Part shown: in pieces, positions 35,984-59,232 of the stretch
Layout: the number at the start of each line of letters is the position of its first letter
Numbering within the stretch: the first letter of the stretch is position 1
Assembly: GCA_020631855.1 (NCBI GenBank)
Contig: JACKGU010000001.1
Coordinates: 103,601 to 167,600 of the forward strand
Length of the DNA stretch: 64,000 nt
Reading direction: 5' to 3'
Source of the DNA: Candidatus Nomurabacteria bacterium
GTDB lineage: Bacteria; Patescibacteriota; WWE3; UBA101185; UBA10185
The notes under the pieces: model-generated
Told to the model about the DNA's origin: nothing
What the model saw: only the letters and a program-made list of their open reading frames with translations
The model's database searches: none
Program-made: the position numbers and the translations under genes

Positions 35984-38900
35984 TTATTTTATGGTTATAA
36001 TCCACCAATCAAATTCTATATCTTCTGTTACCGGACTGTTGGTTTTAACAATAAAGTATTCTTTTTCAGCCTTTTCATATACGTATAGCACCTCGTTATA
36101 GGTATTGCTAGTTGGTGTTATTATGACCTTGGAGTTGGCATCTATTGATTTTGTTTCTATTTTTACCTCGGTACTTTCGGCTTTCAAGACCCCACTGCCG
36201 ACATAGTCGCTGTCTTTATCAAATACAAGCTCTGAAGTTTTGATTTGTGCCGCTTCAACCTCTCCCTCAATACGAACTGTTCCATCTGCTTCAAATAGAA
36301 TAGCGCCGTCCATAAAATCTATGTTTCCGGACAGATTCTTTTGGAAGTATATGGTTTGTAGTTCACATAGTTCTTCATTTAGGCTACCTGTTGCTTTGGT
36401 GTAACATGAAGGTCCAATAACACTAAGCTCGTTTGTTAGAGACTCAAGTCTAATGCTTCCAACTTGAAGATCTTTGGTAATTGTTAAACCACCAAGTGTT
36501 GTATCTCCTGTAACTAGGAAGTTTGCATCAAGGGTCATTGTTGTAGTACTGTCTTGAGTTTGAGTAGTAAGTCCAAGAGCTTCTGCGAATCCTTTAAAGG
36601 ATTCATATGTATCTTTAAGCTCTTGAATCTTGGAATCAATGTATGTGGTATCTTCAGGTGTGACTTCGATTGTATTAGTTTGAGTTAGATTGGTTTGAGT
36701 TTCCGTATCAACTTCAAGCTGTGCTAATTGTTCTTGCAGATCCTCGATCTTCTGCTCTTGTTCTTGGATACCTTTAATAAGGTAGGGGACTAGATGGTGG
36801 TATTCAATTGACCATGTGTTTGCGGGATCATCAGGTTTATCAACTACCTGCGGTAGATACTCATATACATCTTGAGCAATAAGCCCTGTTGCTCTTCCTC
36901 TATCTGCCCATTTTGTTCCTTCTTTCCAATCAAAATCAACAACTTCAAAACGATTAATTAATTCAAGTGCATTAAGATTTGATGTTTCAATATTATCTTT
37001 AAGTCTTCTATCTGATGCTGTAACGTTAATAGAAGCATTACCGATATACATAGTAGTTGAACCTGAACCATTTGACGAGTCATCAAGTAGATTAGCATCG
37101 ACCGCGTTACCTATATGAAAGCCTCCTCCTGCATATACAATATCTCCGACATCTAAGAAATCTCTAAAGTAGCTATAGCCGTTTGAAACTCCAACATGAA
37201 ACACTTCATCATAGATATCTCTAACCACAAAACTCTTACCTGATGTTCCTCCTGCATCAAGACGTAAATATCCATCTCCGCTACCGAAGCTTTCTGTATA
37301 GAGAGAGGTGCTCTTGCCGTAGCTGTCTTCCAGCTCAAGGTTTCCGACAACATGAAGCTCAGAGCCGGGGGTTGTTGTACCGATTCCAACGCGGTCTGTG
37401 CCTGCGTTGACATAAAAAAGAGCCGAGTTTGAGGACCCTCGAATGTTGAAATCGATATCCGTAGCCGCGGGATTAACATACATTATATCTGAGGTCCCTT
37501 CTGAAAGCCTTAGAAAAGCTGCTCCTCCTGCTACCACATCAAGCTGATCATCAGTAAAAGATAGGTAGGTATTAGCGTCCCCATTATGATATATGTACTG
37601 ATCTAAGCCTATATCTCCGGCAACATCAAGTGCGTAGTCTGGGGCGGAGGTTCCTGCACCTATTCTTCCGTTCGCGGCTACCGCGCTTAAAACTGTCCCG
37701 CCGGTGTCTTTCCACTCTTGAAGGTTCGAAGACTGGCTCGTAATACCTTTTACTGTCAAAGGCACGCCGGCTGAGTTTTGAGAGTGAATTGTCAATCCTG
37801 CTCCCGCACCTGAAAATAGTCCGTAGATTAAAGGAGTAGTTGTGCTTGAGTTTGCAATATATAGGGTATTTGAACCTCCCTCGTTATATCCTGCTTCATA
37901 TCCTAAGAATACGTTTGAACTTCCGTTTAACGAATAGCCGGCTCTTGATCCAACAATTGTGTTATAGTCAAGGCCGGTTCGAACTGTAAAATTCGCATAT
38001 CCGGCCATATAGCCCAAAAACGCATTCCTAGTTCCGCCAATTCGAGATCCAGACATTGCTCCTATTGATGTGTTTCCTGACTCTGTAGTATTGCCCAAAA
38101 ATACATAGCTTCCCACCCCGACATTACTGCCTCCGGAGGTATTTGCGGTAAAATTACTTGTTCCTATAACATTATTGCTACTTCCAGAAATGTTATTTTG
38201 AAGTGCGCCATTTCCTATTGCTACATTTGCAATTGCAGTTGTAGAGTAGAGCATTGCGTTCATTCCAATTGCGGTATTGTTATATCCTACGGTGAGGTTA
38301 GATAGTGTGGCTGCTCCAATAGCCGTGTTGCCACCAGCATTACCGTCAGGGTTTCTACCGTCGAGGTTATATAGGGCAGAGTGACCAATTGCAACATTAT
38401 TGATGCTGTATTTTGCTTTCTGCAATGTTCCGTACCCTATGGCAACGTTTTGAACACCGGTTTCGTTTGCATAGAGAGAAGCTCCTCCGATAGCAACATT
38501 GTACCCGGTGCCCGCATAGCTCATGCTTGCTAGAGAGCCGGAACCGATAGCTACATTTCTACTAGTCGAGACGGCGCTTCTAAGGGCGCTGTCACCCAAG
38601 GCAACATTTCCCGAGCTTGCTAGGCCTAGGTATTGCAGTGCGTTTGTTCCAAAAGCAAAGGCACCGTTCAGAGATCTTTGTTCGTTGACAATTGTTCCTG
38701 TGTCATCAAGCAGCACCACCGCTGCAGAGTTTTTAGTCACTAGTTTTACAGATACGTTATCTATTGATCCGTCGAAATCAGATGAGGGGGTAAATACAAG
38801 CCCGCCGCTTGCTCCTGCAGTAATAACCGGTGCAAAATTATTATTTGAATCATATGTAGTTAAATTTGGTGATTGTGCGCCATTTACTTTCACTCTTACT

Positions 38901-41900
38901 GTACCCGCAGTCATGTTTTTTATTTGAAACTGAACAACATACACAGATCCGTTTGAAAAAGAAATGGCCTGGCTGAGGTCGGCCGTTGCTCCGGCTGTAT
39001 GGGTAGCATATCCTGAAGCATTCCATGCCCAGTTTGTACCATATGTCCAATCGGAAGATGTTGCAAAGTCGCCGTTGGTTACCATTTCTGATCCAGGGGC
39101 AGTAATTGCCGACTTGCCCCTGAACGTAGATATGCCGGTATCAGAATCAACTGAAAAATAGTTTACGGCGGAACTATTTTGTACAGCTAAAGTTTTTGTA
39201 AATAGGCCTGCCCCATCTTTGCTAATACTGGCGAGTACTGTACCCCCGTTATTCTGCCACTCTTGCAAGTTAACGCTTTGCCCCGAAGCCCCTTTTACAA
39301 GAAGCCCTTTGCGAGCTGAGGTGGGGGATTCAATTTTTACTTGCGTTCCCGCATCTATGCTTGCGGTTCCGAAGGTAGAAACAGCTCCGCTGACAGTAAA
39401 ATAAGTCGAGTTGATATTTGTATAGGTAGCTTCTAGCGTGAGTTGCCCAGTGCCGTTCCTATATAAAAATGTATCAGACCCTAGAGCAATGCCTCCGGTT
39501 GCGGTAGTGTGGTTTGCAATTTCAAGTGCATGTGTTGCCGAGGTTGTTCCAATTCCAATATTACCGCTAGCATCGATAATGAAAGGAGTAGTGTCTGATC
39601 CTACATCGTTAACTCTAAAACTGTTTCCTGTACCTGTGTTGGTTATTGAAAATTCCTCACTACCATCTACTGCGATATCTGTACTTGCGTCAAGAGCCAT
39701 AGCATCTTTAAATTCAGTGAAGTCAAGAGAATCTGCAGTTATTGCTGTTGCTCCTATTGTACCTCCACTTAGTACGCCGGAAGAGGATGTCACTACCCCA
39801 TCAGATAATCCACTAAACGTTATTGTTCCGCTACTCGTGATACCTGCTGCCGCTATTATCTGCCCACTGCTATTTACCTGAAACAGATCTCCATTGCCTA
39901 CTGTTAATGCTGATGCGGGAGAGGTGTCCCCGATGCCGACTTTACCTGTTATTGTCATATTTGCAAGATATCCCCCTGAGTTTAGAACTCTTATATAACT
40001 GTCAGCATCATTTCTCCAAGCGTCAAGACCCAGCTCTGTCCTTGTTGCTCTAAATGTGCTTGTGCTTGAATCTCGAACAATAGAAGTAGCCTTACCGTTT
40101 ACGGTGTCAAAAAAGAATCTAACAGTACCTCCGTTGTCTCCTGCAATCTCGAGAGGATAGCTAGGGCTTGTTGTCCCAATCCCCACATTGCCGTTGTCTA
40201 AAATTACTACCTCACTTGTAGTATCGCCGTCAGGATCAAAGCCAAGATAATTACTGGTAGTGTTATATCCCAGGATAGCTTCATTGCCAGTATCACCAAT
40301 ATGAATACTCGATCCTTTTACAAATAATTCAGTCCAGCGAGAACTTGATGAACCAAGACTACTCACACCATCAGCCGCAGGCAAGAAATCATCAGAAGCA
40401 ATTAAGTCAGAACCGTTCCATCTAAGATATTCAGTCGCACCGTTTCCAAAATAGAGATAATTAGCCAACTCAATATCACCGGCCACGTCCAGTAGCTGGC
40501 CGGGACTGGCTGTTCCTATACCTACATTGCCCGAAGAATTTATGACCATTCTTTGTGTTCCAGAGGTTGTTGTGTTATTGGCAGCTGTAGTAAAGATAAT
40601 ATCTGTTGCAGCATTTAACAAAGAAGTGCCTCCGCCAAAATTTATAACATTTGTAGAAGTCCCGGACCCAGCATTAAAAATAGCAAATGGTTCTTCAGCG
40701 TTATTGTAGTGAGCAATTCCAAGTCGGGCATTTTTTGAAGTCGCGTCTGTTCTTGTTGTATATAAATTATCTGCCCCCAGTAAGAGTGAAACTGAACCGT
40801 TTGATATATCGAGTCCTGCACTAGGGGTATTCGTACTAATACCTACAAGGCCGGCAGTATCTATAAATAGTCTTTGAGTTCCATCTGTAAGTAAGGCAAG
40901 GCTTCGGGCCGACCCACCGCCGGAGCCTTTTGAAGTTCCAACACTCAACACATTCGAGCTCCAATAAAAATCACCACGTTCGTATGAGGTTCCCGAGGAG
41001 TAGGTATTATAGATTCGGAAGGACTGCGCATTTGTAGAGTTTCGAAGTGAAATGTTGTTTGCACCGTCGGAAAGTAAAAATGCACTAGGCCCTGTTGTGG
41101 AATTAAACCCAAGAGCATAGCCGGCTTGTATTGCTAACGCCGCAGTGGCATTGTTGATGCCTAGTAAATCGGCACCGGATTTTGAAAAGAATATTGCCGA
41201 CCCGCTTTGTCTCATACCTATTCCGGTTGCATTTCCAAAAGATAATGACGGGGCCGCTGCGGTTCCATCAGGCAGCAAAAGTTGCCCTGATGCTAGCTCC
41301 AAAGTACCCCCCGGCGTTGCGGTTCCAATGCCAACTCGGTGTGTGCTTGAATCAACATATAAATCATTTGTGTTTACTGTAAAGTCTCCGGTTCCGGAAA
41401 GTCCGATGTTGAAGTTACTCCCGCCCGCAGGATTAAAAGTTATCGCGCCGGTTGTTTGAGTAAAGGTTGTTGAGGCACCGTCAAGCGTGACACTAGTGCT
41501 TGCAATATTTAAGGCGCCGTCTACATTAAGATCTCCCGCTATAGTTAAAGTATTTCCGGACTCATAGGTGTCGTTTGCGTTTGATCTCAAAAAATCACTC
41601 CCGGCAAAAGATCCCAGCTGGTCAGCCGTTTTAGCATTAAATGCGTAAGGGACAGCTGCTAAAGTTTTTCTTGGAGAAAAGGTTTCTCCTTCTGAAAAGT
41701 CTCCGTTACCGCTAGGATCAAATTCAACCTCAATAAATAAAGATCCGCTGGTAAAATCAGGTCCCCCGTTCTGGTTACAGCTTGAGAAAGTTCCTCCGCA
41801 ATCTAGTTCTAATGTGAATACGTCGCCGAAGTCATCAAGCTCGACATCCGATTTTGTTTCTTGCCACACAAGTGTTCCTCCAGAAGAGGAAGTATATATG

Positions 41901-42163
41901 CTGACTCTAAAGTCGCATGTATCTGCGCCGCTTGTATTAATACAAGCGGCGTCCGAACTTGTTAAATTTGTGCCATCAGGGTTAACGATTTTTCCCTGGT
42001 AAACTAGGGCCTCGTTAATTGCAGCAAAAACTTTATGCCCAAAATTATTTAGATGATTGATAAGTAATAAAATAAAGAGTAAAGCCACAAATCTTGCAAC
42101 AGGCTTAGCCAAGCCCTTAGTTGCAAGTACTATGCGTTTGTAGGCAGTAGTTGTTAAGTTCAA
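35984..42163 (-). CDS. Giant (2059 aa) secreted/anchored fibre protein resembling a phage tail fibre, with GIGTxxP collar motifs, Gly/Asn-rich beta-helix repeats and a C-terminal peptidase-S74 intramolecular-chaperone domain
   Basis: An N-terminal signal-anchor is present. The collar motifs recur (RVGIGTATPGGTLELA, NVGIGTASPGQLLDVAGD, NVGIGTTSPSYPLEIAGD, RVGIGTTTPGSELHVVGN). The repeats are 'NVAIG..SL / NTAIG' type. The C-terminus carries 'SDRRLKDNIE...IEYHHLVPYLIKGIQEQEQKIEDLQ', which is the CIMCD cleavage/chaperone signature. Confidence 0.75.
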   Translation of the reverse strand: MNLTTTAYKRIVLATKGLAKPVARFVALLFILLLINHLNNFGHKVFAAINEALVYQGKIVNPDGTNLTSSDAACINTSGADTCDFRVSIYTSSSGGTLVWQETKSDVELDDFGDVFTLELDCGGTFSSCNQNGGPDFTSGSLFIEVEFDPSGNGDFSEGETFSPRKTLAAVPYAFNAKTADQLGSFAGSDFLRSNANDTYESGNTLTIAGDLNVDGALNIASTSVTLDGASTTFTQTTGAITFNPAGGSNFNIGLSGTGDFTVNTNDLYVDSSTHRVGIGTATPGGTLELASGQLLLPDGTAAAPSLSFGNATGIGMRQSGSAIFFSKSGADLLGINNATAALAIQAGYALGFNSTTGPSAFLLSDGANNISLRNSTNAQSFRIYNTYSSGTSYERGDFYWSSNVLSVGTSKGSGGGSARSLALLTDGTQRLFIDTAGLVGISTNTPSAGLDISNGSVSLLLGADNLYTTRTDATSKNARLGIAHYNNAEEPFAIFNAGSGTSTNVINFGGGTSLLNAATDIIFTTAANNTTTSGTQRMVINSSGNVGIGTASPGQLLDVAGDIELANYLYFGNGATEYLRWNGSDLIASDDFLPAADGVSSLGSSSSRWTELFVKGSSIHIGDTGNEAILGYNTTSNYLGFDPDGDTTSEVVILDNGNVGIGTTSPSYPLEIAGDNGGTVRFFFDTVNGKATSIVRDSSTSTFRATRTELGLDAWRNDADSYIRVLNSGGYLANMTITGKVGIGDTSPASALTVGNGDLFQVNSSGQIIAAAGITSSGTITFSGLSDGVVTSSSGVLSGGTIGATAITADSLDFTEFKDAMALDASTDIAVDGSEEFSITNTGTGNSFRVNDVGSDTTPFIIDASGNIGIGTTSATHALEIANHTTATGGIALGSDTFLYRNGTGQLTLEATYTNINSTYFTVSGAVSTFGTASIDAGTQVKIESPTSARKGLLVKGASGQSVNLQEWQNNGGTVLASISKDGAGLFTKTLAVQNSSAVNYFSVDSDTGISTFRGKSAITAPGSEMVTNGDFATSSDWTYGTNWAWNASGYATHTAGATADLSQAISFSNGSVYVVQFQIKNMTAGTVRVKVNGAQSPNLTTYDSNNNFAPVITAGASGGLVFTPSSDFDGSIDNVSVKLVTKNSAAVVLLDDTGTIVNEQRSLNGAFAFGTNALQYLGLASSGNVALGDSALRSAVSTSRNVAIGSGSLASMSYAGTGYNVAIGGASLYANETGVQNVAIGYGTLQKAKYSINNVAIGHSALYNLDGRNPDGNAGGNTAIGAATLSNLTVGYNNTAIGMNAMLYSTTAIANVAIGNGALQNNISGSSNNVIGTSNFTANTSGGSNVGVGSYVFLGNTTESGNTSIGAMSGSRIGGTRNAFLGYMAGYANFTVRTGLDYNTIVGSRAGYSLNGSSNVFLGYEAGYNEGGSNTLYIANSSTTTPLIYGLFSGAGAGLTIHSQNSAGVPLTVKGITSQSSNLQEWKDTGGTVLSAVAANGRIGAGTSAPDYALDVAGDIGLDQYIYHNGDANTYLSFTDDQLDVVAGGAAFLRLSEGTSDIMYVNPAATDIDFNIRGSSNSALFYVNAGTDRVGIGTTTPGSELHVVGNLELEDSYGKSTSLYTESFGSGDGYLRLDAGGTSGKSFVVRDIYDEVFHVGVSNGYSYFRDFLDVGDIVYAGGGFHIGNAVDANLLDDSSNGSGSTTMYIGNASINVTASDRRLKDNIETSNLNALELINRFEVVDFDWKEGTKWADRGRATGLIAQDVYEYLPQVVDKPDDPANTWSIEYHHLVPYLIKGIQEQEQKIEDLQEQLAQLEVDTETQTNLTQTNTIEVTPEDTTYIDSKIQELKDTYESFKGFAEALGLTTQTQDSTTTMTLDANFLVTGDTTLGGLTITKDLQVGSIRLESLTNELSVIGPSCYTKATGSLNEELCELQTIYFQKNLSGNIDFMDGAILFEADGTVRIEGEVEAAQIKTSELVFDKDSDYVGSGVLKAESTEVKIETKSIDANSKVIITPTSNTYNEVLYVYEKAEKEYFIVKTNSPVTEDIEFDWWIITIK
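36252..37333 (-). repeat. 1082 bp segment 100% identical to 47632..48713 (the shared 3' cassette of the two giant fibre genes, present as direct copies)
   Basis: Base-by-base comparison gives a constant offset of 11380. Identity breaks at 36251/47631 and at 37334/48714. Confidence 0.9.
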
Positions 42164-42225
42164 ATTTTTTCAGTTAGTTTCTTAAATTAACTATTTATAA
42201 GTTTATATTAATCGAATATGGAGTG

Positions 42226-43698: not shown

Positions 43699-43816
43699 TG
43701 CTATAATAATAATTCACCGAGCTCCTTTAGTCACTATATTCTTATATTTCTGGGGTATCCGCCTTATTTAGAAGAAAAAAATTCATGTAGTAACGAGGAA
43801 GTGCGCTGTATTTAAT

Positions 43817-43938
43817 TTATAATTTCATTACTTAAAACTGCTTGCGTAAGCTAGTAGACGTAGTTTACCTTACATGTTGGGTTTTGCAACGCAAATAAAT
43901 TACAGCAACCCTCCTGTGTGGGCTGGTTGGCTTTAAAA
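43817..43938 (+). repeat. Intergenic roughly 125 bp repeat element, copy F (between two minus-strand genes)
   Basis: TTATAATTTCATTACTTAAAACTGCTTGCGTAAGCTAGTAGACGTAGTTTACCTTACATGTTGGGTTTTGCAACGCAAAT... Confidence 0.7.
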
Positions 43939-43951
43939 AAATAACTTCGTA

Positions 43952-44944: not shown

Positions 44945-44965
44945 ATCAAAATCATTTTACGGCAG

Positions 44966-45928: not shown

Positions 45929-46035
45929 GGGCCCTTTCTTATTACGTAGAAAATTAGAACTTTTAGCCTGTAATAATTACATACAATGCTAGAGATTGTT
46001 TTTTGTTTTGTCAAGTTTAATCTATAATAGAGCAT

Positions 46036-47154
46036 ATGCTCGGAAATTATGAAAAATCAAGGACAACTGCTATTACTAATAGAAATGTAATTCAGGACGT
46101 TAACTTTAGCAGGCGGGCTATTGTTTTATCTGTTTTCATTTTTTTATACTTTTTCTTATTAAGTAGTTTCTTATCGATTAGTGCTCAGGTACCCGCAAGC
46201 TCGAGTTTTGTAATTAAGGGTGAAAATGTCTCTCCTTCCGGAGGTGTGGGCTCTACCCCCAATTTCATGTTAAATGCAGATTTAAGCCCTTTCTCTCAAA
46301 GCCCTGCTGATGCCAGCTCATTTAAAGCTTATATAGGTTATAATCCTCGTATACAGGCTAATACACCTTACGAACCAACTCTAGACAATGCTACCGGTCA
46401 ATACTACGATAGGTTACTACTTACCATTGACCCTTCGGGAAACCCCACAGATACTCTTTTTGCTGTTGCGATATCGGCAAACTCCTGGAGTACCACATAC
46501 TATGTACAAAACGATAACACTCTAGCATTGTCTTTAGGCCCTGAGGATTACAGAACTTATGCGGGTTGGGGAGGATCGGGAGGCACCCTGATCTTAGGGC
46601 TGAGCCCTTCCTCTTCTTATGTTGCCAAAGTTAAGGCCTTGAACGGTGATTTCACTGAGACTTTATATGGCCCGGAATCTTCTGCTGTAGAAACAGTGGT
46701 GCCTTTTATTAGTTTGTCTGTTTCTTCTTCTGTTTCGGAATTTGGGGTTTTAAGTGCAAATGAAATTAAATCGGCCTCTTCTGTCGATCTTTCTGTTACT
46801 ACAAACGCGGAGTCAGGTTATTCTCTCTCGGTAAATGGTACGGGCAGCGGTGTTCAGCCCGGACTGTACAATGGGGTGGGTAATGTCATAGTTTCTCAAG
46901 ATACTGTTCTTTCAGTTGGTACAGAAGGTTACGGAGCTCAGGGCTCCTCAGGTACTGCAACGATTTCTTCCAAATACGATTTAGCTGGTGACTTTGTAGG
47001 CAGCTTGGATCTATCTCCTCAGGAGCTTGCCTCCAACTCTGTGCCGGTTTCTGGTGATAGTTCTACCATAACTTTCAAAGCTTCAATTTCCGGAAATACC
47101 GTTGCCGGAGAGTATGAAGACATTGTTTATTTCACTATCTCCCCATCTTTATAA
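46036..47154 (+). CDS. Thr/Ser-rich secreted surface protein, a paralog of 44966..45928 (C-terminal 'KASISGNTVAGEYEDIVYFTI')
   Basis: An N-terminal transmembrane or signal sequence and the shared C-terminal motif are present. Confidence 0.45.
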   Translation: MLGNYEKSRTTAITNRNVIQDVNFSRRAIVLSVFIFLYFFLLSSFLSISAQVPASSSFVIKGENVSPSGGVGSTPNFMLNADLSPFSQSPADASSFKAYIGYNPRIQANTPYEPTLDNATGQYYDRLLLTIDPSGNPTDTLFAVAISANSWSTTYYVQNDNTLALSLGPEDYRTYAGWGGSGGTLILGLSPSSSYVAKVKALNGDFTETLYGPESSAVETVVPFISLSVSSSVSEFGVLSANEIKSASSVDLSVTTNAESGYSLSVNGTGSGVQPGLYNGVGNVIVSQDTVLSVGTEGYGAQGSSGTATISSKYDLAGDFVGSLDLSPQELASNSVPVSGDSSTITFKASISGNTVAGEYEDIVYFTISPSL

Positions 47155-47271
47155 TTTCGTTACTTAAAACTACTTGTGTAAGCTAGTAGATGTATTTTAT
47201 CCAACATGTTGGGCTTTGCAACGCAAAGAAATTACAGCAAACCATCTGTGTAAGCTGGTGTTGGTTGGTAG
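47149..47271 (+). repeat. Intergenic roughly 125 bp repeat element, copy G (overlaps the TAA stop of the upstream gene)
   Basis: TTATAATTTCGTTACTTAAAACTACTTGTGTAAGCTAGTAGATGTATTTTATCCAACATGTTGGGCTTTGCAACGCAAAG... Confidence 0.75.
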
Positions 47272-47363
47272 TTATTGCTAAGTATACACGCAGGAACAAA
47301 CCATTTCTCATAGTTTGACATGGAGATTGCCTATTTTACCAGTGCTCCCCAAGTCGCATTTTT

Positions 47364-50300
47364 CTATTCAGATTTCAATACCCACCAGTTGAATGAAGAA
47401 TCTTCGTCTATTGTCTTTGATATGCTTACTTTGAAACTCTCGCTCTCTGTAATCTTACTAACATACAGTTGTTGTCCTTTGGTGTCTGTGGTTGGGGTTA
47501 TAAATACTATCGCATCTTTACTAATGCCCCTCACCTCTACTGTTACAGAACTTTCCCCACTCTTTATCGCGCTTTGTCCTATTGTTTCGCTATTTGAGAG
47601 ATACTTATAATCTTGCGCTGTTATGGTTTTAGCTTCAACCTCTCCCTCAATACGAACTGTTCCATCTGCTTCAAATAGAATAGCGCCGTCCATAAAATCT
47701 ATGTTTCCGGACAGATTCTTTTGGAAGTATATGGTTTGTAGTTCACATAGTTCTTCATTTAGGCTACCTGTTGCTTTGGTGTAACATGAAGGTCCAATAA
47801 CACTAAGCTCGTTTGTTAGAGACTCAAGTCTAATGCTTCCAACTTGAAGATCTTTGGTAATTGTTAAACCACCAAGTGTTGTATCTCCTGTAACTAGGAA
47901 GTTTGCATCAAGGGTCATTGTTGTAGTACTGTCTTGAGTTTGAGTAGTAAGTCCAAGAGCTTCTGCGAATCCTTTAAAGGATTCATATGTATCTTTAAGC
48001 TCTTGAATCTTGGAATCAATGTATGTGGTATCTTCAGGTGTGACTTCGATTGTATTAGTTTGAGTTAGATTGGTTTGAGTTTCCGTATCAACTTCAAGCT
48101 GTGCTAATTGTTCTTGCAGATCCTCGATCTTCTGCTCTTGTTCTTGGATACCTTTAATAAGGTAGGGGACTAGATGGTGGTATTCAATTGACCATGTGTT
48201 TGCGGGATCATCAGGTTTATCAACTACCTGCGGTAGATACTCATATACATCTTGAGCAATAAGCCCTGTTGCTCTTCCTCTATCTGCCCATTTTGTTCCT
48301 TCTTTCCAATCAAAATCAACAACTTCAAAACGATTAATTAATTCAAGTGCATTAAGATTTGATGTTTCAATATTATCTTTAAGTCTTCTATCTGATGCTG
48401 TAACGTTAATAGAAGCATTACCGATATACATAGTAGTTGAACCTGAACCATTTGACGAGTCATCAAGTAGATTAGCATCGACCGCGTTACCTATATGAAA
48501 GCCTCCTCCTGCATATACAATATCTCCGACATCTAAGAAATCTCTAAAGTAGCTATAGCCGTTTGAAACTCCAACATGAAACACTTCATCATAGATATCT
48601 CTAACCACAAAACTCTTACCTGATGTTCCTCCTGCATCAAGACGTAAATATCCATCTCCGCTACCGAAGCTTTCTGTATAGAGAGAGGTGCTCTTGCCGT
48701 AGCTGTCTTCCAGTTTAAAACTTCCAAGAACATGCAATTCGGCGCTAGGGCTAGTGGTTCCGATTCCAACGACCCCCTTTAGTAGTGTAGTAAGAATGCT
48801 GTCGTTTCCTAGTACAACGCTGTTGCTTCCGGCTCCGATAGCCCCAAATCCTATTACTACCTCATTTTCTCCGCCATCTGCTAATGCCTTAGTTTGCGAC
48901 CCGAGATACAAGGATGTAATGCTAGTTGAATTAGGACTTGCGCCGTCTGCCAAATATGTTCCTGCAAAGACCCCAATAGCGGTGTTCCAGTACCCTGTTG
49001 TGTTGTGATACAAAGAAGCTACGCCTGATGTTGTGTTGTAACTACCTGTAGTATTTTCGTATAGAGCTTGTTCCCCAAATGCGCTATTGCTTGATCCCGT
49101 AGAGTTTGTATATAAAGTTTCAAAGCCGACCCCGGCATTACTTTGTCCGGTTAAGTTAGAGTAAAGAGTTCGGTAGCCTGTAGCTATGTTTTGACCCCCC
49201 GTGCTGTTTGCTCGGAGAGCCTGGTGGCCGAGGGCAACGTTATAATATCCGTAAGTGTTTAAATATAAAGCTTCAGATCCGAATGCAATATTATAGTTTC
49301 CGGTAGTGTTTGAGGACAGCGCGTAAGCTCCAAAGGACGAGTTTTGACTGCCCGAAGTGTTTGCTTGCAAAGAGAAGTAACCAACTGCTGTGTTGTCAAT
49401 CCCTGTCGTATTTGTTGTTAACGAAAAGTATCCAACCGCTGAGTTTTGGCTTCCTGTAGTGTTTGAGTATAGAGCGTAAGATCCAAAGGAGGAGTTGTAG
49501 TTACCTCCTGTGTTTGTATATAAAGCCCCGGAACCTACAGCTGAATTTCCGTTCCCACTAACGTTTGAAAATAAAGCTTGATAACCTAAGGCTGCGTTGT
49601 CGCTGCCGGTAGTATTGTACCTTAAAGCCGTATAACCAACCCCAACATTATAGTTCCCTGTAGTGTTTGTACGAAGCGCATTGGTACCAAATGCAGAGTT
49701 ATAGCTTCCTGTTGTATTTTGTCTTAGCGTATAGGGCCCGACTGCGGTGTTGTAGCTCCCACTAGTGTTTTCATATAAAGCGAAATATCCCGCTGCTAGG
49801 TTATAGTCTCCTGTGGAGTTTGAGTACAAGGTAGAAGTGCCTAAAGCTGAGTTATAGCTTCCGGTAGTGTTTGAGTATAAGGCACTTCTTCCTATTGCAA
49901 CATTTGAGTTTCCTGTAGTGTTTGAATACAAAGCAGAATATCCAAATGCAGAGTTATAGCTCGCTGTAGTGTTTGAGTACAGTGCGCTACTCCCTACAGC
50001 AACATTAAAGCTTCCCGAAGTATTAAAGATTAGCGCGTCTCTACCGGTGGCAATATTGTCGGTTCCGACAGTATTTCTAAACAAAGCATTTGTTCCTGTC
50101 GCAATGTTATTGCTCCCGGTGGTGTTAAAATATAGGGCGGATATGCCTGAGGCAATGTTATAGTTGCCTGTAGTATTGGTGTATAAAGTAGTTCCGCCTA
50201 TGGCAATGTTGCCGGTTCCAATAGTGTTGTAATACATAGAATTGTTTCCTACAGCAACGTTGCTTCCCCCCGTAGTGTTTCTTCGGAGCGCGCTGGGACC

Positions 50301-52937
50301 AAATGCATAGTTATAACTTCCCGTTGTATTGGAAGATAAAGAGTCATTTCCTAGAGAAATATTACCTGTCCCTGTAGTGTTTGAGAATAAAGCTAGATAA
50401 CCGGCTGCAATGTTATTGCTGCCGCTTGTGTTTGAATATAGCGCGAAAGCTCCGGCGGCAATATTATAATTTCCTGTAGAGTTGGAGTATAGAGCACTAT
50501 TTCCGAATGCAGTGTTGAAACTTCCTGTAGAGTTAAAGTACAAAGCATTGTAACCCGTTGCAACGTTAGAGTTTCCTGTGGTGTTCGAGTAGAGCGCATA
50601 AGATCCGGTAGCAATATTAGCAGGACCTGAAGTATTGCTAGCCAAGGCATAGTCTCCGGTAGCAATATTATAATTTCCTGTAGAGTTAAAGTATAGAGCA
50701 TAAAATCCCGCAGCAAAGTTATAGCTTCCTGTGGTGTTTGAGTATAGAGCGTGATCTCCTGTGGCAATATTATTGGCCCCTGAAGTATTTGAATATAGAG
50801 CACTTCCTCCTACAGCAATGTTCCGATTTCCTGTAGAGTTAAAGTATAGTGCGTTGTAGCCTGCAGCAATATTGTTTCCTCCCGTAGTGTTAAAATACAA
50901 TGCGTAGTTACCTAGAACCAGGTTGTAACTCCCTGTGGTGTTGGAAGCTAGTGCATGTTTACCTAAAGCCACGTTGCTGACTCCTGTGGTGTTGTTGAAC
51001 ATAGCAAAGGGGCCAAAGGCTAAATTGTCATTACCGGTAGTGTTTGAATATAGGGCCGAGCTTCCAAAGGCTGAGTTATAGTTTCCGTTAGTGTTTGAAT
51101 ATAGGGCGGCGGCTCCTAGGGCGGAGTTATAGTTTCCGCTGTCAATATTGCTCAGGGCCCCTGCACCTACTGCTGTATTTGAGCGACCATACGTTAAAGT
51201 ACTCAGTGCGTTATAGCCCAGCCCGGTGTTATAGCTCGCAATACTAGCATCCGGAGAACCCTGTCCTAGAGTAAAATTTCCGCTATTCTCCCCTACAAAT
51301 GTGTTTTGTCCTGTATTACCTTCCCAGTGATAATTGTGGATAAAACTTGCGGACTCTTTATATATGACTCCTGTAGTAGGGGAGCTTGTATTTTCCAATA
51401 CCATTGCTCCTACTAAATCTAGCGCTTGCGCAGGGGCAATTTTTCCTATCCCCACATTACCGCTTGAGTCTATGACAAAAGGTGAAGTATCTCCCGCGGA
51501 GTCGTTCACTAAAAACGATACCCCTGTTCCTGTATTTGTAAGTGAGAACTGATTCGCTCCTGTAATAGCTATATCTGTCGAATCGTCGAGGGTCATCGCA
51601 TCTTTAAATTCAGTGAAGTCTAAGCTGTCGGGACCGACAGAGGCAGCCCCTACAGTTGTCCAGGCCAGAGTACCATTACCGTCATTTGCAAGTACATAGC
51701 TGGCGGCCCCGGCTTGTGTGGTTGGCCATGCGTAAGTAACATTATTTATTTTAATAATGTCCCCTGAGGCATTAACTTGAAATTGAGATGCTGTGCCAAC
51801 CGAAAGAGGGGACTGTGGGTTATTTGTATTTATTCCCAAGGCATGTGTTGCGCTGTTATAAAATAGATACGCTGTGTCTTGCATGAAACCGCTTCCCGAA
51901 CCAAAAATTATGCCGCCTTCATCTGCAGTAGATCCTTCTAAAAAATTTAGTTCTTCGGCGGTAGCATTTACATTTGTTCCTCCTATACTCCAGGTGCCTC
52001 CTATGGCCAAAGTTCCGTTTAAATTAAAATTATCTTCGTACGTGAAGTCTGGCACCAGATTATTACCGTCTATAATGTTGTCTGCAAGAGCATTCGCATT
52101 TAGAGTTCCAATAATGTCGCCTGTAAGTTCCAACGAGTTTTCAAGAGAGTTTTTAGAGACCGCATCTATTGCCAGCAAGCCGTTTATTGTCGATGCTCCG
52201 GTAAAGTTTATGGTTGTAGTTGAGACGCCCCCTTCAACTGTTGCCGGGCCGGTGATATTTAATGAGCTCAATATGTTTGTTGGTACATTTAGAGTAAATC
52301 TGAGTTCAGGAGATCTGGCTCTTGCGGCTAAAACCTCTGCCTCTTGTCGTTGTATTCTTTGAGTGCCTTTTTCATCTCCCCGCTTATAGTTTGCTATATA
52401 TTTTTTTATTGATAGTGCACTTTGTATATTTTTATCGGGAGTTTCGCGGCTTAGATTATTGAAATCTTTTGCAATTGTTATTGCCAACAAAGCAGCACCT
52501 ATTACAACTGAGGCCAAAATAGCTTTTTTAAATACATTGTTTTTTTGTGTTTTTGCCACTGCTCGTTTTAAGGGGCCCTGTTTAAATTTAACCTTTTTCA
52601 CAATATTTTTAGCTTCTGTTTTAGCAGTTGATTCTGTTGGTTTGCTAGCACTGCTTTCGCTAAGATTTTCTTTGGGCCTTGTATTTATGGGAACATATGC
52701 AAGGTTTTCGATCGGGTTTTTTGTCGTATTAAGTCTGTGATTTTTATAATTTATTATGTCATTGACATTAAAACGCCTGTATCCGTTAGCATCTCTGTTC
52801 TCTATGATTATTGCTTGTTCTGCTAACCTTCTTACGGTAGAGGAGGAGACCCCCAGTATTTTAGCAGCCTCCGAAACAGATAAGAGATTGTTTGATTCAG
52901 AATTGTTTGATGTGTTTTTAATATTTTGGGCAGACAT
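47364..52937 (-). CDS. Giant (1857 aa) protein with an N-terminal excisionase-type HTH, a transmembrane helix, GIGT collar motifs, about 40 copies of a 17-aa 'ALYSNTTG..N.A.G' beta-helix repeat, and a C-terminal peptidase-S74 chaperone domain
   Basis: 'LLSVSEAAKILGVSSSTVRRLAEQAIIIENRDANGYRRFNVNDII' matches HTH_17. The transmembrane helix is 'AILASVVIGAALLAITIA'. A long periodic Gly/Asn/Thr repeat array follows. The C-terminal 360 aa are identical to giant protein 1 through the 'SDRRLKDNIE' CIMCD motif. Confidence 0.75.
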   Translation of the reverse strand: MSAQNIKNTSNNSESNNLLSVSEAAKILGVSSSTVRRLAEQAIIIENRDANGYRRFNVNDIINYKNHRLNTTKNPIENLAYVPINTRPKENLSESSASKPTESTAKTEAKNIVKKVKFKQGPLKRAVAKTQKNNVFKKAILASVVIGAALLAITIAKDFNNLSRETPDKNIQSALSIKKYIANYKRGDEKGTQRIQRQEAEVLAARARSPELRFTLNVPTNILSSLNITGPATVEGGVSTTTINFTGASTINGLLAIDAVSKNSLENSLELTGDIIGTLNANALADNIIDGNNLVPDFTYEDNFNLNGTLAIGGTWSIGGTNVNATAEELNFLEGSTADEGGIIFGSGSGFMQDTAYLFYNSATHALGINTNNPQSPLSVGTASQFQVNASGDIIKINNVTYAWPTTQAGAASYVLANDGNGTLAWTTVGAASVGPDSLDFTEFKDAMTLDDSTDIAITGANQFSLTNTGTGVSFLVNDSAGDTSPFVIDSSGNVGIGKIAPAQALDLVGAMVLENTSSPTTGVIYKESASFIHNYHWEGNTGQNTFVGENSGNFTLGQGSPDASIASYNTGLGYNALSTLTYGRSNTAVGAGALSNIDSGNYNSALGAAALYSNTNGNYNSAFGSSALYSNTTGNDNLAFGPFAMFNNTTGVSNVALGKHALASNTTGSYNLVLGNYALYFNTTGGNNIAAGYNALYFNSTGNRNIAVGGSALYSNTSGANNIATGDHALYSNTTGSYNFAAGFYALYFNSTGNYNIATGDYALASNTSGPANIATGSYALYSNTTGNSNVATGYNALYFNSTGSFNTAFGNSALYSNSTGNYNIAAGAFALYSNTSGSNNIAAGYLALFSNTTGTGNISLGNDSLSSNTTGSYNYAFGPSALRRNTTGGSNVAVGNNSMYYNTIGTGNIAIGGTTLYTNTTGNYNIASGISALYFNTTGSNNIATGTNALFRNTVGTDNIATGRDALIFNTSGSFNVAVGSSALYSNTTASYNSAFGYSALYSNTTGNSNVAIGRSALYSNTTGSYNSALGTSTLYSNSTGDYNLAAGYFALYENTSGSYNTAVGPYTLRQNTTGSYNSAFGTNALRTNTTGNYNVGVGYTALRYNTTGSDNAALGYQALFSNVSGNGNSAVGSGALYTNTGGNYNSSFGSYALYSNTTGSQNSAVGYFSLTTNTTGIDNTAVGYFSLQANTSGSQNSSFGAYALSSNTTGNYNIAFGSEALYLNTYGYYNVALGHQALRANSTGGQNIATGYRTLYSNLTGQSNAGVGFETLYTNSTGSSNSAFGEQALYENTTGSYNTTSGVASLYHNTTGYWNTAIGVFAGTYLADGASPNSTSITSLYLGSQTKALADGGENEVVIGFGAIGAGSNSVVLGNDSILTTLLKGVVGIGTTSPSAELHVLGSFKLEDSYGKSTSLYTESFGSGDGYLRLDAGGTSGKSFVVRDIYDEVFHVGVSNGYSYFRDFLDVGDIVYAGGGFHIGNAVDANLLDDSSNGSGSTTMYIGNASINVTASDRRLKDNIETSNLNALELINRFEVVDFDWKEGTKWADRGRATGLIAQDVYEYLPQVVDKPDDPANTWSIEYHHLVPYLIKGIQEQEQKIEDLQEQLAQLEVDTETQTNLTQTNTIEVTPEDTTYIDSKIQELKDTYESFKGFAEALGLTTQTQDSTTTMTLDANFLVTGDTTLGGLTITKDLQVGSIRLESLTNELSVIGPSCYTKATGSLNEELCELQTIYFQKNLSGNIDFMDGAILFEADGTVRIEGEVEAKTITAQDYKYLSNSETIGQSAIKSGESSVTVEVRGISKDAIVFITPTTDTKGQQLYVSKITESESFKVSISKTIDEDSSFNWWVLKSE

Positions 52938-53932: not shown

Positions 53933-53936
53933 GAGT

Positions 53937-56588: not shown

Positions 56589-56589
<1 letters not shown>
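55123..56589 (+). CDS. atpA: F1 ATP synthase alpha subunit
   Basis: 'GRGQRELLIGDRKTGKTS' (Walker A) and 'PGRDSYPGDMFYVHARLLERAG' are present. Confidence 0.9.

Positions 56590-59232
<2,643 letters not shown>

What the first reader, a model, noticed from the sequence alone, without database searches (positions are those of the whole stretch)
35984..52937. Roughly 17 kb surface-fibre island: two proteins resembling phage tail fibres, plus a Ca-binding thrombospondin-type-3-repeat protein, an anchored surface protein and two Thr/Ser-rich paralogs, with no phage structural genes
The 2059 and 1857 aa proteins have the hallmarks of long tail fibres and endosialidase-type tailspikes. They carry 'GIGTxxPxxxLxV' motifs 5-6 times each. 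Giant 2 has about 40 tandem 17-aa 'ALYSNTTGxxNxAxG' repeats and giant 1 has 'NVAIG/NTAIG' repeats, both consistent with beta-helix or beta-roll structure. Each ends in a peptidase-S74 CIMCD that would be auto-released after trimer folding. In this locus they are cellular genes with a signal-anchor (giant 1) or an HTH plus a transmembrane helix (giant 2). Their neighbours are other secreted or anchored proteins. No capsid, sheath, baseplate or terminase gene is present. For a putative epibiont, these are prime candidates for host-cell attachment or recognition fibres. Giant 1, the TSP3-repeat protein, the anchored 330-aa protein and a T/S-rich protein are co-directional at 35984-45928 and look like an operon.
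Basis: partly seen in the sequence, partly recalled or inferred. Interest (0 to 1): 0.75.

Follow-up and report, generated by a model that had tools for sequence, protein, structure and literature searches.

The report
Pam-type pilus operon with phage-like fibres
This is a chromosomal (not prophage) gene cluster of a candidate-phyla-radiation bacterium that joins a recently described Pam-type pilus operon to two giant proteins built like phage tail fibres, most likely the cell's host-contact gear. Most parts are of known kinds; the new details are one fibre's DNA-binding membrane anchor and a tip cassette shared exactly by both fibres.

Summary
Both giant ORFs (2059 and 1857 aa) carry a Peptidase_S74 domain with an SDRRLK motif, capping-loop motifs and 17-aa repeats. 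Giant 2 has 42 repeat units in perfect register. All flanking genes are cellular.

The interpretation needs revision. The two Thr/Ser-rich paralogs are Pam-type pilins. The "anchored 330-aa protein" is a PapD/WxLIP-fold, membrane-anchored pilus chaperone. The pilus system was described in a 2026 preprint, which also notes in one sentence that a "tail fibre-like protein" and ATP synthase genes sit next to it.

Giant 1 is a Bdellovibrio-MAT-like fibre. Its N-domain is conserved and it is the last gene of this operon in at least 8 loci, but body length and tip differ between loci.

Giant 2 belongs to a recurrent, undescribed architecture: MerR-type HTH, one transmembrane helix, fibre, S74 and a C-terminal β-sandwich. 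Such genes lie divergently beside the ATP synthase operon in four genomes.

The two giants share a 1082-bp, 100 % identical cassette covering the fibre tip, S74 and a linker. About 343 residues follow the predicted cleavage site, and no phage homolog covers the last ~240 of them.

A role in host adhesion is inferred, not shown. Verdict: a new variant of known kinds, of moderate to high interest.

The parts
35984..42163 (-). Giant 1 (2059 aa). A MAT-like secreted fibre made of signal peptide, conserved N-domain, mosaic shaft, tip, S74, linker and CTD.
   Evidence: ORF; Pfam S74; sub-threshold Bdello_MAT_N; PDB sequence hits to Bdellovibrio MAT fibres 8on4/8ond/8oml; PHROG tail fibre and tailspike families.
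42023..42163 (-). Giant 1 signal peptide (aa 1-47), probably cleaved before 'AINE'.
   Evidence: Hydrophobic segment at aa 16-34. Conservation among orthologs begins exactly at AAINE.
41429..42022 (-). Giant 1 conserved N-terminal domain (aa 48-245), with four invariant Cys. Presumed docking module.
   Evidence: 57-59 % identity to L072 and L074 orthologs whose bodies differ. E 1e-33 to 1e-80 in metagenome loci. NF053851 Bdello_MAT_N, 35.5 bits over aa 157-195.
38084..38608 (-). Giant 1 NxAIG repeats at about 17-aa spacing (aa ~1186-1360).
   Evidence: Regex spacing mostly 17 (17/19/17/17/23/17/17/34) and autocorrelation peak at 17. phrog_4636 tail spike hit at aa 1220-1324.
36252..37333 (-). 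Shared cassette, copy 1 (g1 aa 1611-1971). It covers the last 106 aa of the mature fibre tip, S74, a coiled coil and a β-helix-like linker.
   Evidence: 100 % identical over 1082 bp to 47632-48713; 361 aa identical. Contig ends of independent assemblies fall at its borders.
36842..37015 (-). Giant 1 Peptidase_S74 domain (aa 1717-1774). Predicted cleavage before S1717, with K1722 as the general base.
   Evidence: Pfam PF13884 E 2e-13, profile positions 1-57 of 58; SDRRLK.
35987..36251 (-). Giant 1 terminal 88-aa β-sandwich CTD ending in FDWWI.
   Evidence: 28 % identical to the giant 2 tail. Conserved in P0016, P0002 and many HTH giants. Weak K1-lyase_C (E 0.03) and weak 7eea (E 0.036).
42226..43698 (-). 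TSP3-repeat protein (490 aa): signal peptide, eight Ca-binding-type repeats, a β-rich domain and a C-terminal TM helix. It occupies the position that PamR holds in Saccharibacteria.
   Evidence: Pfam TSP3_bac; motifs and TM. Orthologs lie between the chaperone and the fibre in L072, L074, L075 and L077. No similarity to PamR.
43952..44944 (-). Membrane-anchored two-domain PapD/WxLIP-fold protein (330 aa). Pam-type pilus chaperone (PamC/D-like).
44966..45928 (-). Pam-type pilin (320 aa).
46036..47154 (+). Divergently transcribed Pam-type pilin paralog (372 aa).
   Evidence: NF058581 E 3e-5. Paralogy to the 320-aa pilin. Orthologs in the same divergent position in L072, L074, L075 and L077.
47364..52937 (-). 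Giant 2 (1857 aa): cytoplasmic MerR-type HTH, TM helix, fibre, tip, S74, linker and CTD.
   Evidence: ORF; Pfam; PHROG. Same architecture in P0002, P0172 and others.
52743..52886 (-). Giant 2 MerR/HTH_17 helix-turn-helix (aa 18-65).
   Evidence: Pfam MerR 30.4 bits, HTH_17 27 bits. Orthologs in L005 and L006 score 41-49 bits.
52470..52538 (-). Giant 2 transmembrane helix (aa ~134-156), preceded by a Lys/Arg-rich stretch, which implies N-in topology.
   Evidence: Hydropathy. Sequence KKVKFKQGPLKRAVAKTQKNNVFKK before the helix.
48972..51122 (-). Giant 2 array of 42 x 17-aa repeats (shaft).
   Evidence: 40-45 % identity over 98 % of a 441-aa sample to tail fibres of Pelagibacter phages HTVC112P/111P, Methylophilales phage Venkman and P-SSM2.
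47632..48713 (-). Shared cassette, copy 2 (g2 aa 1409-1769).
48222..48395 (-). Giant 2 Peptidase_S74 domain (aa 1515-1572).
   Evidence: PDB 8jov tail fibre alignment across ASDRRLK.
47367..47631 (-). Giant 2 terminal 88-aa CTD ending in FNWWV.
33686..35908 (-). Polytopic (about 13 hydrophobic segments) membrane protein with C-terminal TPRs, immediately downstream of giant 1. A conserved neighbour of S74 fibres.
   Evidence: Pfam TPR; hydropathy. Homologous (E 1e-31) to the gene after S74 protein P0016 in L004.
53078..58996 (+). F-type ATP synthase operon, divergent from giant 2. A conserved neighbour.
   Evidence: Pfam. Same divergent pairing with HTH giants in L005, L006 and L071. Pam chaperone homologs lie 8-10 kb from atpA in 24 of 60 CPR loci.

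Best explanation
The island is a chromosomal cell-surface apparatus of a CPR (Patescibacteria) bacterium. It has two kinds of appendage.

(1) A divergent Pam-type pilus. Two pilins (320 and 372 aa) are exported by Sec and polymerised by donor-strand exchange with the help of a membrane-anchored PapD/WxLIP-fold chaperone (330 aa). A TSP3-repeat protein with a C-terminal anchor replaces PamR.

(2) Two trimeric, phage-tail-fibre-like proteins.
- Giant 1 is secreted, and its signal peptide is cleaved before AINE. Its conserved N-domain docks it to a partner encoded in the same operon.
- Giant 2 is a type-II membrane protein with a cytoplasmic MerR-type HTH.

In both giants the C-terminal S74 module trimerises and templates folding of the upstream β-helical shaft. 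It then cuts itself off at Ser1717 (giant 1) or Ser1515 (giant 2) through a Ser-Lys dyad. This exposes the same 106-aa distal tip on both fibres, because that tip lies inside a recombination-homogenised cassette.

The fibres, on the order of 100 nm long by extrapolation, and the pili probably make the first contact with a host cell.

Shown here: domain identities, folds, synteny, the exact repeat and the absence of phage genes.
Inferred: trimerisation, autoproteolysis, surface display, host binding and the docking partner.
For: S74 and fibre character:
- S74 is above the cut-off and SDRRLK is present.
- Capping-loop motifs VGIGTxxPxxxL occur 8 and 3 times. They are the motif defined for S74 fibres in PMC10769870.
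- PDB sequence hits to Bdellovibrio MAT fibres.
- The shaft repeats are 40-45 % identical to real phage tail fibres.

Pilus parts:
- The chaperone model (pLDDT 90) matches WxLIP and the fimbrial chaperones.
- It is homologous to the chaperone of a bona fide pam operon, in which PamT, the pilins and PamR all score above NCBIfam cut-offs.
- Pilin evidence.

Synteny:
- The order pilin-chaperone-(pilin)-TSP3-N-domain fibre is conserved in L072, L074/L076, L075 and L077. Chaperone-fibre adjacency is seen in L080, L082 and L083.
- HTH giants lie divergently from atp in L005, L006 and L071.

Context and repeat:
- Flanking genes are cellular.
- The exact repeat is real, because contigs from five other samples break at its borders.
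Against: - No experiment and no trimer model supports the folding or cleavage steps.
- The pilins score below the NCBIfam cut-off (29 and 24 bits against 55).
- No PamT or PamR was found.
- About 343 aa follow the cleavage site, far more than a canonical CIMCD. The terminal CTD is conserved even in giants without S74, so 'discarded chaperone' may be too simple.
- The HTH has no role in a pure adhesin model.
- The host of this organism is unknown.
- Giant 1 orthologs mostly lack S74.
Confidence: 0.6

Rival explanations
1. The giants are remnants of a prophage, tailocin or contractile-injection-system tail module.
For: - Strong PHROG tail-fibre and tailspike hits.
- Phage homologs of the shaft repeats and of S74.
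Against: - No capsid, terminase, portal, sheath, tube, baseplate, integrase or lysis gene occurs in 64 kb.
- There is no tRNA at the borders.
- The genes sit between rplA and rplJ, next to the ATP synthase operon.
- Synteny with pilus genes is conserved across several CPR genomes.
- The N-termini are a Sec signal or an HTH plus TM helix, not virion-attachment domains.
Confidence: 0.03
2. The fibres are not adhesins. They are envelope or matrix scaffolds, or polysaccharide-degrading tailspike-like enzymes that remodel the cell's own or the host's surface.
For: - Some phage hits of the repeat region are annotated endo-N-acetylneuraminidase.
- The CTD is weakly similar to the K1 capsule lyase C-terminal domain and to a cyanophage tailspike.
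- CPR cells have elaborate envelopes (general knowledge).
Against: - No catalytic domain is detected in either giant.
- The tip left after cleavage is only about 106 aa.
- The closest characterised cellular relatives, the MAT fibres, bind prey glycans (PMC10769870).
- The phage annotations rest on the repeats, not on a sialidase domain.
Confidence: 0.15
3. Giant 2 and its relatives are membrane-tethered transcription regulators. The extracellular trimeric fibre senses contact or tension, and the cytoplasmic MerR-type HTH, as a tethered trimer or after intramembrane proteolysis, controls the adjacent ATP synthase operon and/or its own gene. This does not exclude adhesion.
For: - The HTH-TM-fibre architecture recurs. 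Of 30 long representatives, 29 have the HTH, most have a single TM helix, 6 have S74 and 2 have a Peptidase_G2 IMC domain.
- The HTH is conserved above Pfam cut-offs in orthologs.
- The divergent arrangement with atp holds in four genomes.
- An M50 site-2-type protease gene lies at 61422-62039.
Against: - No operator-like palindrome is found in the 140-bp intergenic region.
- L007 has a related giant next to atp without an HTH.
- MerR proteins normally dimerise through a coiled coil that is absent here (general knowledge).
- The HTH could be a mere cytoplasmic anchor.
- S74 is outside the cell, so a MYRF-type release cannot apply.
Confidence: 0.15
4. The 1082-bp identity is an assembly artefact, or alternatively a programmed recombination switch that excises the 11.38-kb segment between the copies.
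For: - Contig L067 (11,403 bp, 23-bp terminal overlap) equals one repeat period and encodes a chimeric protein of g1 body plus g2 tail.
Against: Against an artefact:
- The source contig is 520 kb.
- Five other assemblies are 100 % identical and break exactly at the repeat borders, as expected for a true two-copy repeat.

Against a switch:
- A cycle in a de Bruijn graph gives the same contig without any excision.
- No recombinase gene is nearby.
Confidence: 0.08

Closest known systems
Bdellovibrio bacteriovorus MAT (mosaic adhesive trimer) fibres, S74 subgroup (PMC10769870)
   Same: - Cellular, not viral.
- Signal peptide followed by a conserved β-rich N-domain.
- Long mosaic trimeric β-helical shaft with V-G-G/N-x-x-x-P-x-x-x-L capping loops.
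- C-terminal S74 with SDxxxK.
- Tips swapped between paralogs.
- Used by a bacterium that lives on other bacteria.
- Direct sequence hits to MAT crystal structures and to NF053851.
   Different: - The NF053851 match is partial and below the cut-off.
- The host is a monoderm-like CPR cell, not a Gram-negative predator.
- Giant 1 is embedded in a pilus operon.
- Giant 2 replaces the N-domain with an HTH plus TM helix.
- About 285 aa, including a conserved CTD, follow the S74 domain.
- The proteins are twice as long as typical MATs.
Pam pilus system of Ca. Mycosynbacter amalyticus and other CPR bacteria (bioRxiv 10.64898/2026.03.03.709456)
   Same: [quoted passage not shown]
- PapD-like chaperone with a C-terminal TM helix.
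- No usher.
- Neighbourhood of ATP synthase and a tail fibre-like gene.
- CPR-restricted.
   Different: - The pilins score below the NCBIfam domain cut-off.
- No PamT or PamR is present. A TSP3-repeat anchored protein and an N-domain fibre occupy the distal end of the operon.
- The operon lies on the other side of the atp operon, in the opposite orientation.
- The closest pilin homologs come from WWE3-type genomes, not from Saccharimonadia.
Phage tail fibres and tailspikes with a C-terminal intramolecular chaperone domain (K1F endosialidase, T5 pb1; Pfam PF13884)
   Same: - S74 domain with a Ser-Lys dyad directly after a β-helical tip.
- 17-aa shaft repeats 40-45 % identical to pelagiphage and cyanophage fibres.
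   Different: - No virion-attachment N-terminus and no phage context.
- The released fragment is about 343 aa, against roughly 150 aa.
- No phage record covers the last 240 aa.
WxL surface-protein clusters of Firmicutes (WxLIP = DUF916 + DUF3324; PMC10599100; PDB 9i1y)
   Same: - Both have a C-terminal TM anchor.
- Both sit in clusters with secreted β-rich surface proteins.
   Different: - No WxL motif is evident in the pilins, although no WxL domain model was matched or specifically tested.
- WxLIP is described as an adaptor that binds WxL domains and host ligands, not as a pilus chaperone.
- Homology between the two systems is unproven.
MYRF (eukaryotic membrane-bound transcription factor with an S74/ICA domain)
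   Same: It combines a DNA-binding domain, one TM helix and an S74 trimerisation and self-cleavage domain in one polypeptide.
   Different: - The order differs. MYRF is DBD-ICA-TM, so cleavage frees the DBD.
- Here the order is HTH-TM-fibre-S74, so cleavage is extracellular and cannot free the HTH.

Membership tests
Peptidase S74 / CIMCD | Match to PF13884 above the gathering score | tested here: met
   50.7 bits against 22, profile positions 1-57 of 58, in both giants.
Peptidase S74 / CIMCD | Catalytic Ser and Lys in an S-D-x-x-x-K motif at the start of the domain | tested here: met
   SDRRLK at g1 aa 1717 and g2 aa 1515. It aligns to ASDERLK of tail fibre 8jov.
Peptidase S74 / CIMCD | The domain forms the extreme C-terminus (a released fragment of roughly 150 aa) | tested here: not met
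   343 aa follow the predicted cleavage site. The extra 240 aa have no phage homolog.
Peptidase S74 / CIMCD | Trimerisation-dependent autoproteolysis | not testable with these tools
   Needs expression of wild type and a Ser-to-Ala mutant.
Bdellovibrio MAT fibre superfamily | Signal peptide followed by the conserved ~130-aa β-rich N-domain (NF053851) | tested here: inconclusive
   Giant 1 scores 35.5 bits against a cut-off of 60, and only profile positions 123-161 match. The domain is conserved within CPR. Giant 2 lacks it and has an HTH plus TM helix instead.
Bdellovibrio MAT fibre superfamily | β-helical shaft with V-G-G/N-x-x-x-P-x-x-x-L capping loops | tested here: met
   8 motifs in giant 1 and 3 in giant 2. 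Giant 1 aa 417-585 aligns to MAT structures 8on4, 8ond and 8oml (E 1e-4).
Bdellovibrio MAT fibre superfamily | Variable C-terminal tips (S74 or non-S74) on a conserved N-domain | tested here: met
   N-domain orthologs are 742-2059 aa long. They carry an NS74 β-sandwich tip (L072, L074, L077), S74 (window, L078) or the CTD (L081).
Bdellovibrio MAT fibre superfamily | Surface display and binding of prey or host glycans | not testable with these tools
   No cultured representative and no binding assay.
Pam pilus system (CPR) | Pilin with the CPR_Pam_pilin_C domain (NF058581) above the cut-off | tested here: not met
   29.4 and 24.0 bits against 55. Homology is still supported by hhalign to bona fide L014 pilins (E 1.6e-7 and 6.8e-6).
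Pam pilus system (CPR) | [quoted passage not shown] | tested here: met
   [not shown]
Pam pilus system (CPR) | PapD/FimC-like chaperone with a C-terminal transmembrane helix (PamC/D) | tested here: met
   Helix at aa 299-329. Homolog (E 4e-25) of the L014 gene between the pilins and PamR.
Pam pilus system (CPR) | PamR (RbmA-like anchor) and PamT (tip pilin) | tested here: not met
   No NCBIfam hit in the island proteins. The TSP3 protein shows no similarity to the L014 PamR.
Pam pilus system (CPR) | Neighbourhood with ATP synthase genes and a tail fibre-like gene | tested here: met
   Window layout. 24 of 60 atpA-anchored CPR loci carry the chaperone homolog. Preprint statement.
Prophage / tailocin tail module | Adjacent capsid, terminase, sheath, tube, baseplate or lysis genes | tested here: not met
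   None in 64 kb. By contrast, the real phage locus L001 has them around its S74 fibres.
WxL cluster (Firmicutes) | WxLIP (DUF916/DUF3324) protein | tested here: inconclusive
   [not shown]
WxL cluster (Firmicutes) | Partner proteins with a C-terminal WxL domain | not tested
   No WxL Pfam hit was reported for the pilins at E <= 0.01. No dedicated comparison was made.

The most novel reading that the evidence does not exclude
The HTH-TM-fibre-(S74 or G2 chaperone)-CTD giants could be a new class of one-component, contact-sensing transmembrane regulators of CPR bacteria. In this reading a roughly 100-nm trimeric extracellular fibre is physically coupled to three cytoplasmic MerR-type DNA-binding domains. 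Engagement of the host would then be reported directly to the chromosome, for example to the divergently transcribed ATP synthase operon, switching the epibiont's energy metabolism on attachment.

A related reading is that the conserved N-domain of giant 1 docks a phage-type fibre onto the Pam pilus machinery, making a hybrid pilus-fibre organelle.
Probability: 0.12. Interest if true: 0.85.

Novelty: new variant of a known kind. Interest (0 to 1): 0.58.

Why it matters
CPR/Patescibacteria make up a large share of bacterial diversity and mostly live attached to other cells, yet how they recognise hosts is largely unknown.

This locus shows that a whole clade couples the newly described Pam pilus operon to MAT-like, phage-type fibres with exchangeable tips. 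That provides concrete candidates for host-range determinants, and it parallels phage receptor-binding proteins and the prey-recognition fibres of Bdellovibrio.

Two further observations can be tested directly:
- The exact shared tip cassette points to active tip swapping.
- The conserved pairing of HTH-anchored giants with the ATP synthase operon hints at a link between surface contact and gene control.

The fold match between the Pam chaperone and Firmicute WxLIP also suggests an evolutionary bridge between CPR pili and WxL surface clusters.

Tried and rejected
- Searches with giant modules (S74, post-S74, N-domain, body), the pilins and the TSP3 C-terminus against ORFs of 60 atpA-anchored GTDB loci found nothing except the HTH. 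The Saccharibacteria loci therefore show no S74 fibre within 10 kb of atpA. The 'tail fibre-like' gene of the preprint may be another protein, for example the bactofilin-like, TM-anchored 350-aa gene L014:13914-14966.
- BLASTP of the TSP3 protein against the L014 PamR found no similarity, so 'TSP3 = PamR' was dropped.
- A PDB sequence search with the pilin gave no hit at E <= 1. The Pam structures 25PZ and 25QA appear not to be in the copy.
- An inverted-repeat search in the giant 2-atp intergenic region of the window found none.
- The promoter scan is not above chance overall (45 sites against 45.8 expected). However, four of the five perfect TTGACA -35 hexamers found on the minus strand lie just upstream of giant 2, the 320-aa pilin, giant 1 and the TPR gene. 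This is suggestive only.
- The CTD was searched against Pfam and the PDB. Only weak hits came back: K1-lyase_C at E 0.03-0.05 and 7eea at E 0.036. It is left unassigned.
- Literature searches for S74 or tail fibre together with CPR, Patescibacteria or Saccharibacteria found no description of such cellular fibres.
- BLASTP of giant 1 against giant 2 did not list the identical cassette. It was established by direct DNA comparison.
- The AtpA scan did not recover the source genome among the GTDB representatives, so taxonomy rests on homolog labels.


Full report
**Observation**

- giant 1: 35984-42163 (-), 2059 aa
- TSP3-repeat protein: 42226-43698 (-), 490 aa
- 330-aa protein: 43952-44944 (-)
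- Thr/Ser-rich 320-aa protein: 44966-45928 (-)
- its divergent paralog: 46036-47154 (+), 372 aa
- giant 2: 47364-52937 (-), 1857 aa

Pfam places Peptidase_S74 well above its cut-off in both giants (50.7 bits against 22). It also places a MerR/HTH_17 domain at giant 2 aa 18-65 and TSP3_bac in the 490-aa protein. Both S74 domains begin with SDRRLK, the Ser-Lys motif, and align across that motif to a solved phage tail fibre, 8jov.

Giant 2 has 42 units of 17 aa in perfect register with no indel. They are visible as a 51-nt DNA period at 48994-51108. Giant 1 has about nine NxAIG units, most of them spaced 17 aa apart.

The 'GIGTxxPxxxL' motif occurs 8 times in giant 1 and 3 times in giant 2, not 5-6 times each.

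The two Thr/Ser-rich proteins are paralogs over their C-terminal halves (E 5e-12).

**Context**

Nothing in the 64 kb is phage-like. Flanking genes encode:
- ribosomal proteins L10 and L7/L12 (32387-33426)
- L1, L11 and NusG (59273-60944)
- an F-type ATP synthase operon (53078-58996)
- glycogen enzymes, sortases, DprA, ComEC, Obg, Rho and ArgRS

No tRNA or integrase marks the borders.

The window is part of GCA_020631805.1, contig JACKGT010000005.1 (520 kb), labelled 'Candidatus Nomurabacteria bacterium'. The best pilin homologs carry WWE3 labels, and the nearest AtpA among GTDB representatives is from a Levyibacteriota MAG. The class assignment is therefore uncertain, but the organism is a CPR bacterium.

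**The co-directional genes are a pilus operon**

NCBIfam gives both Thr/Ser-rich proteins sub-threshold, full-length matches to CPR_Pam_pilin_C. That led to the preprint 10.64898/2026.03.03.709456. It describes:
- Pam pili of Ca. Mycosynbacter amalyticus
- membrane-anchored PapD-like chaperones PamC and PamD
- an RbmA-like anchor, PamR, and a tip pilin, PamT

I tested this here.
- Its homologs lie 8-10 kb from atpA in 24 of 60 atpA-anchored CPR loci.
- In one of these loci, L014, NCBIfam recognises PamT, two Pam pilins and PamR above their cut-offs. The chaperone homolog (E 4e-25) sits between the pilins and PamR.
- A profile of the window's pilin family matches the L014 pilins (E 1.6e-7 and 6.8e-6).
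- The 320-aa pilin model (pLDDT 92) has the expected two-domain layout and resembles the donor-strand pilins CsuA/B, FimH pilin domain, CupE, FimA and PapA.

PamR and PamT are absent. The TSP3 protein, which has a C-terminal TM helix, occupies PamR's position but is unrelated to it in sequence.

**Giant 1 is a MAT-like fibre and a fixed member of this operon**

Its only PDB sequence hits are Bdellovibrio MAT fibres (8on4, 8ond, 8oml). It also has a partial, sub-threshold match to Bdello_MAT_N.

In relatives the gene order is: divergent pilin | pilin - chaperone - (pilin) - TSP3 - fibre. This order recurs in L072, L074/L076 (a WWE3 genome), L075 and L077. Chaperone-like genes directly precede such a fibre in L080, L082 and L083.

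The fibre's first ~200 mature residues are 57-59 % identical, with four invariant cysteines. Conservation starts exactly at 'AAINE', which argues for a cleaved signal peptide.

Body length ranges from 742 to 2059 aa. The orthologs in L072, L074 and L077 end in a different, mutually conserved β-sandwich tip without S74. The conserved part is therefore the N-domain, a presumed docking module whose partner is unknown. The tip is exchangeable.

**Giant 2 belongs to a recurrent architecture**

An exhaustive search with its first 230 aa found 228 representatives. Of 30 long ones:
- 29 carry the HTH
- most have one TM helix at aa 130-340
- 6 have S74
- 2 have a Peptidase_G2 intramolecular chaperone domain
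- many end in the same 'F-D-W-W-I' domain

P0002 (664 aa) is a miniature version in a cellular context next to mreB.

In L005 and L006, the two loci with the closest AtpA matches, and in L071, such HTH giants are transcribed divergently from the ATP synthase operon, as in the window. L007 has a related giant next to atp that has a plain signal anchor instead.

The Lys/Arg-rich stretch before the helix implies a cytoplasmic HTH. I found no operator-like palindrome in the 140-bp intergenic region.

**The shaft and the cassette**

A 441-aa sample of the 17-aa array is 40-45 % identical over 98 % of its length to tail fibres of Pelagibacter phages, a Methylophilales phage and cyanophage P-SSM2. 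The resemblance to phage fibres is therefore homology, not impression.

The two giants share 1082 bp at 100 % identity (36252-37333 = 47632-48713). The flanks are at background identity, and the 88-aa tails are only 28 % identical. The cassette starts just after the last capping loop and ends at the border of the terminal domain. It thus contains the final 106 aa of the mature fibre, S74, a coiled coil and a linker.

Contigs from five other samples are 100 % identical to the window and stop at the cassette borders. One contig, L067, is an 11,403-bp cycle equal to the repeat spacing plus 23 bp. The repeat is therefore genuine. The cycle is most simply an assembly-graph loop, but excision cannot be excluded.

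Because giant 1 orthologs carry another tip, the window's giant 1 has evidently acquired a giant-2-type C-terminus, which was later homogenised.

**What does not fit the textbook CIMCD**

About 343 aa follow the predicted cleavage site. Phage homologs cover only the tip and S74, and none covers the last ~240 aa.

The terminal β-sandwich is conserved in giants with S74, with a G2-type chaperone, or with neither. It has only weak similarity to tailspike C-terminal domains. Its role is unexplained.

**Mechanism proposed**

- Both fibre types are exported by Sec.
- The C-terminal module nucleates trimer folding and then cleaves itself off.
- Giant 2 stays anchored by its TM helix. Giant 1 is held through its N-domain by an operon-encoded partner, with the chaperone-like protein or the TSP3 protein as candidates.
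- Pam-type pili are polymerised by the anchored chaperone.
- Pili and fibres together reach for the host surface.

Lengths of roughly 100 nm are my extrapolation from the 550-Å model of the 922-aa Bd3182 protein.

Only the sequence, fold and synteny statements are shown. Trimerisation, cleavage, localisation and binding are inferred from the S74, MAT and Pam literature.

**Novelty**

The pilus system and cellular S74 fibres are each known. Their co-localisation in CPR has been mentioned once, without analysis. Literature searches found no description of CPR S74 fibres.

As far as I could determine, these points are new:
- the HTH-TM-fibre architecture and its conserved pairing with atp
- the operon membership and tip variability of the N-domain fibre
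- the TSP3 protein in place of PamR
- the exact shared tip cassette
- the long conserved post-S74 extension
- the WxLIP fold link

I rate the finding a new variant of known kinds.

Noticed in passing
window 32387-33426 and 59273-60944: The usually contiguous rplK-rplA-rplJ-rplL cluster is split. rplK and rplA (59273-60365) and rplJ and rplL (32387-33426), all on the minus strand, are separated by about 26 kb holding the ATP synthase operon, both giants, the pilus genes and the TPR gene.
   Followed up: partly
L067 (JGI 3300010350, Ga0116244_10007866), whole contig: This 11,403-bp contig has a 23-bp terminal overlap and equals one period of the 1082-bp direct repeat (11,380 bp). It encodes a chimeric protein of giant 1 body plus giant 2 tail. 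It is most likely an assembly-graph cycle, but it is also what an excised circle or a tandem amplification would look like.
   Followed up: partly
L073 1608-8831 (ENA ERZ26696514, 1.0-Mb contig): A 2407-aa SdrD_B/GEVED/DUF8202 adhesin ends in a domain homologous to the Pam-type pilin C-domain (E 8e-34 to pilin aa 147-319). It lies directly upstream of pilins and the chaperone. It looks like a giant tip adhesin incorporated by donor-strand exchange, analogous to FimH or PapG.
   Followed up: no
window 33686-35908: A 740-aa protein with about 13 hydrophobic segments and C-terminal TPRs follows giant 1. A homolog (E 1e-31) follows the S74 protein P0016 in 'bacterium BMS3Abin15' (L004). The family is unassigned. 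From memory, the GTGPATY-type loop is reminiscent of O-antigen-ligase or PglL-like enzymes, so it might glycosylate the Ser/Thr-rich pilins or fibres.
   Followed up: partly
window 23743-24858: A second HTH_17/MerR-type protein (371 aa) has a long acidic, low-complexity middle region and no hydrophobic helix obvious on reading its sequence (no hydropathy scan was run on it). It has the same HTH type as giant 2's N-terminus but is soluble.
   Followed up: no
window 52984-53012, 45986-46014, 42200-42229, 35915-35944 (minus strand): Four of the five perfect TTGACA -35 hexamers found on the minus strand of the scanned region lie just upstream of giant 2, the 320-aa pilin, giant 1 and the TPR gene. 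The fifth, at 33605-33632, lies downstream of the TPR gene. The 'operon' may therefore have internal promoters. The scan as a whole is not above chance.
   Followed up: no
L072 1-2373 (C-terminal 790 aa of a giant-2-like protein): This ortholog keeps the post-chaperone linker and the FDYWI CTD but has no S74. From memory, the region before the linker (VGIVSTSPGFTLGAG ... VALAGRVPVEV) resembles Peptidase_G2-type intramolecular chaperones. This suggests that different chaperone types are interchangeable in front of the same CTD. Pfam gave no significant hit.
   Followed up: partly
L014 13914-14966 (Saccharibacteria): A TM-anchored 350-aa protein with a weak Bactofilin-like β-helix hit lies between the ATP synthase operon and the bona fide pam operon. 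It may be the short 'tail fibre-like' neighbour mentioned in the preprint.
   Followed up: no
whole window / GCA_020631805.1: The NCBI label 'Candidatus Nomurabacteria' fits poorly with the best homologs. Pilins at 50-64 % identity come from WWE3-labelled genomes, and the nearest AtpA is from a Levyibacteriota MAG and mislabelled 'Gammaproteobacteria' MAGs. The genome was not found among the GTDB species representatives.
   Followed up: partly
L072 9196-9856 and 6474-7148: In this relative a PemK toxin pair is inserted between the TSP3 gene and the fibre gene, and a CHRD-domain protein lies between the chaperone and TSP3. The operon tolerates insertions.
   Followed up: no
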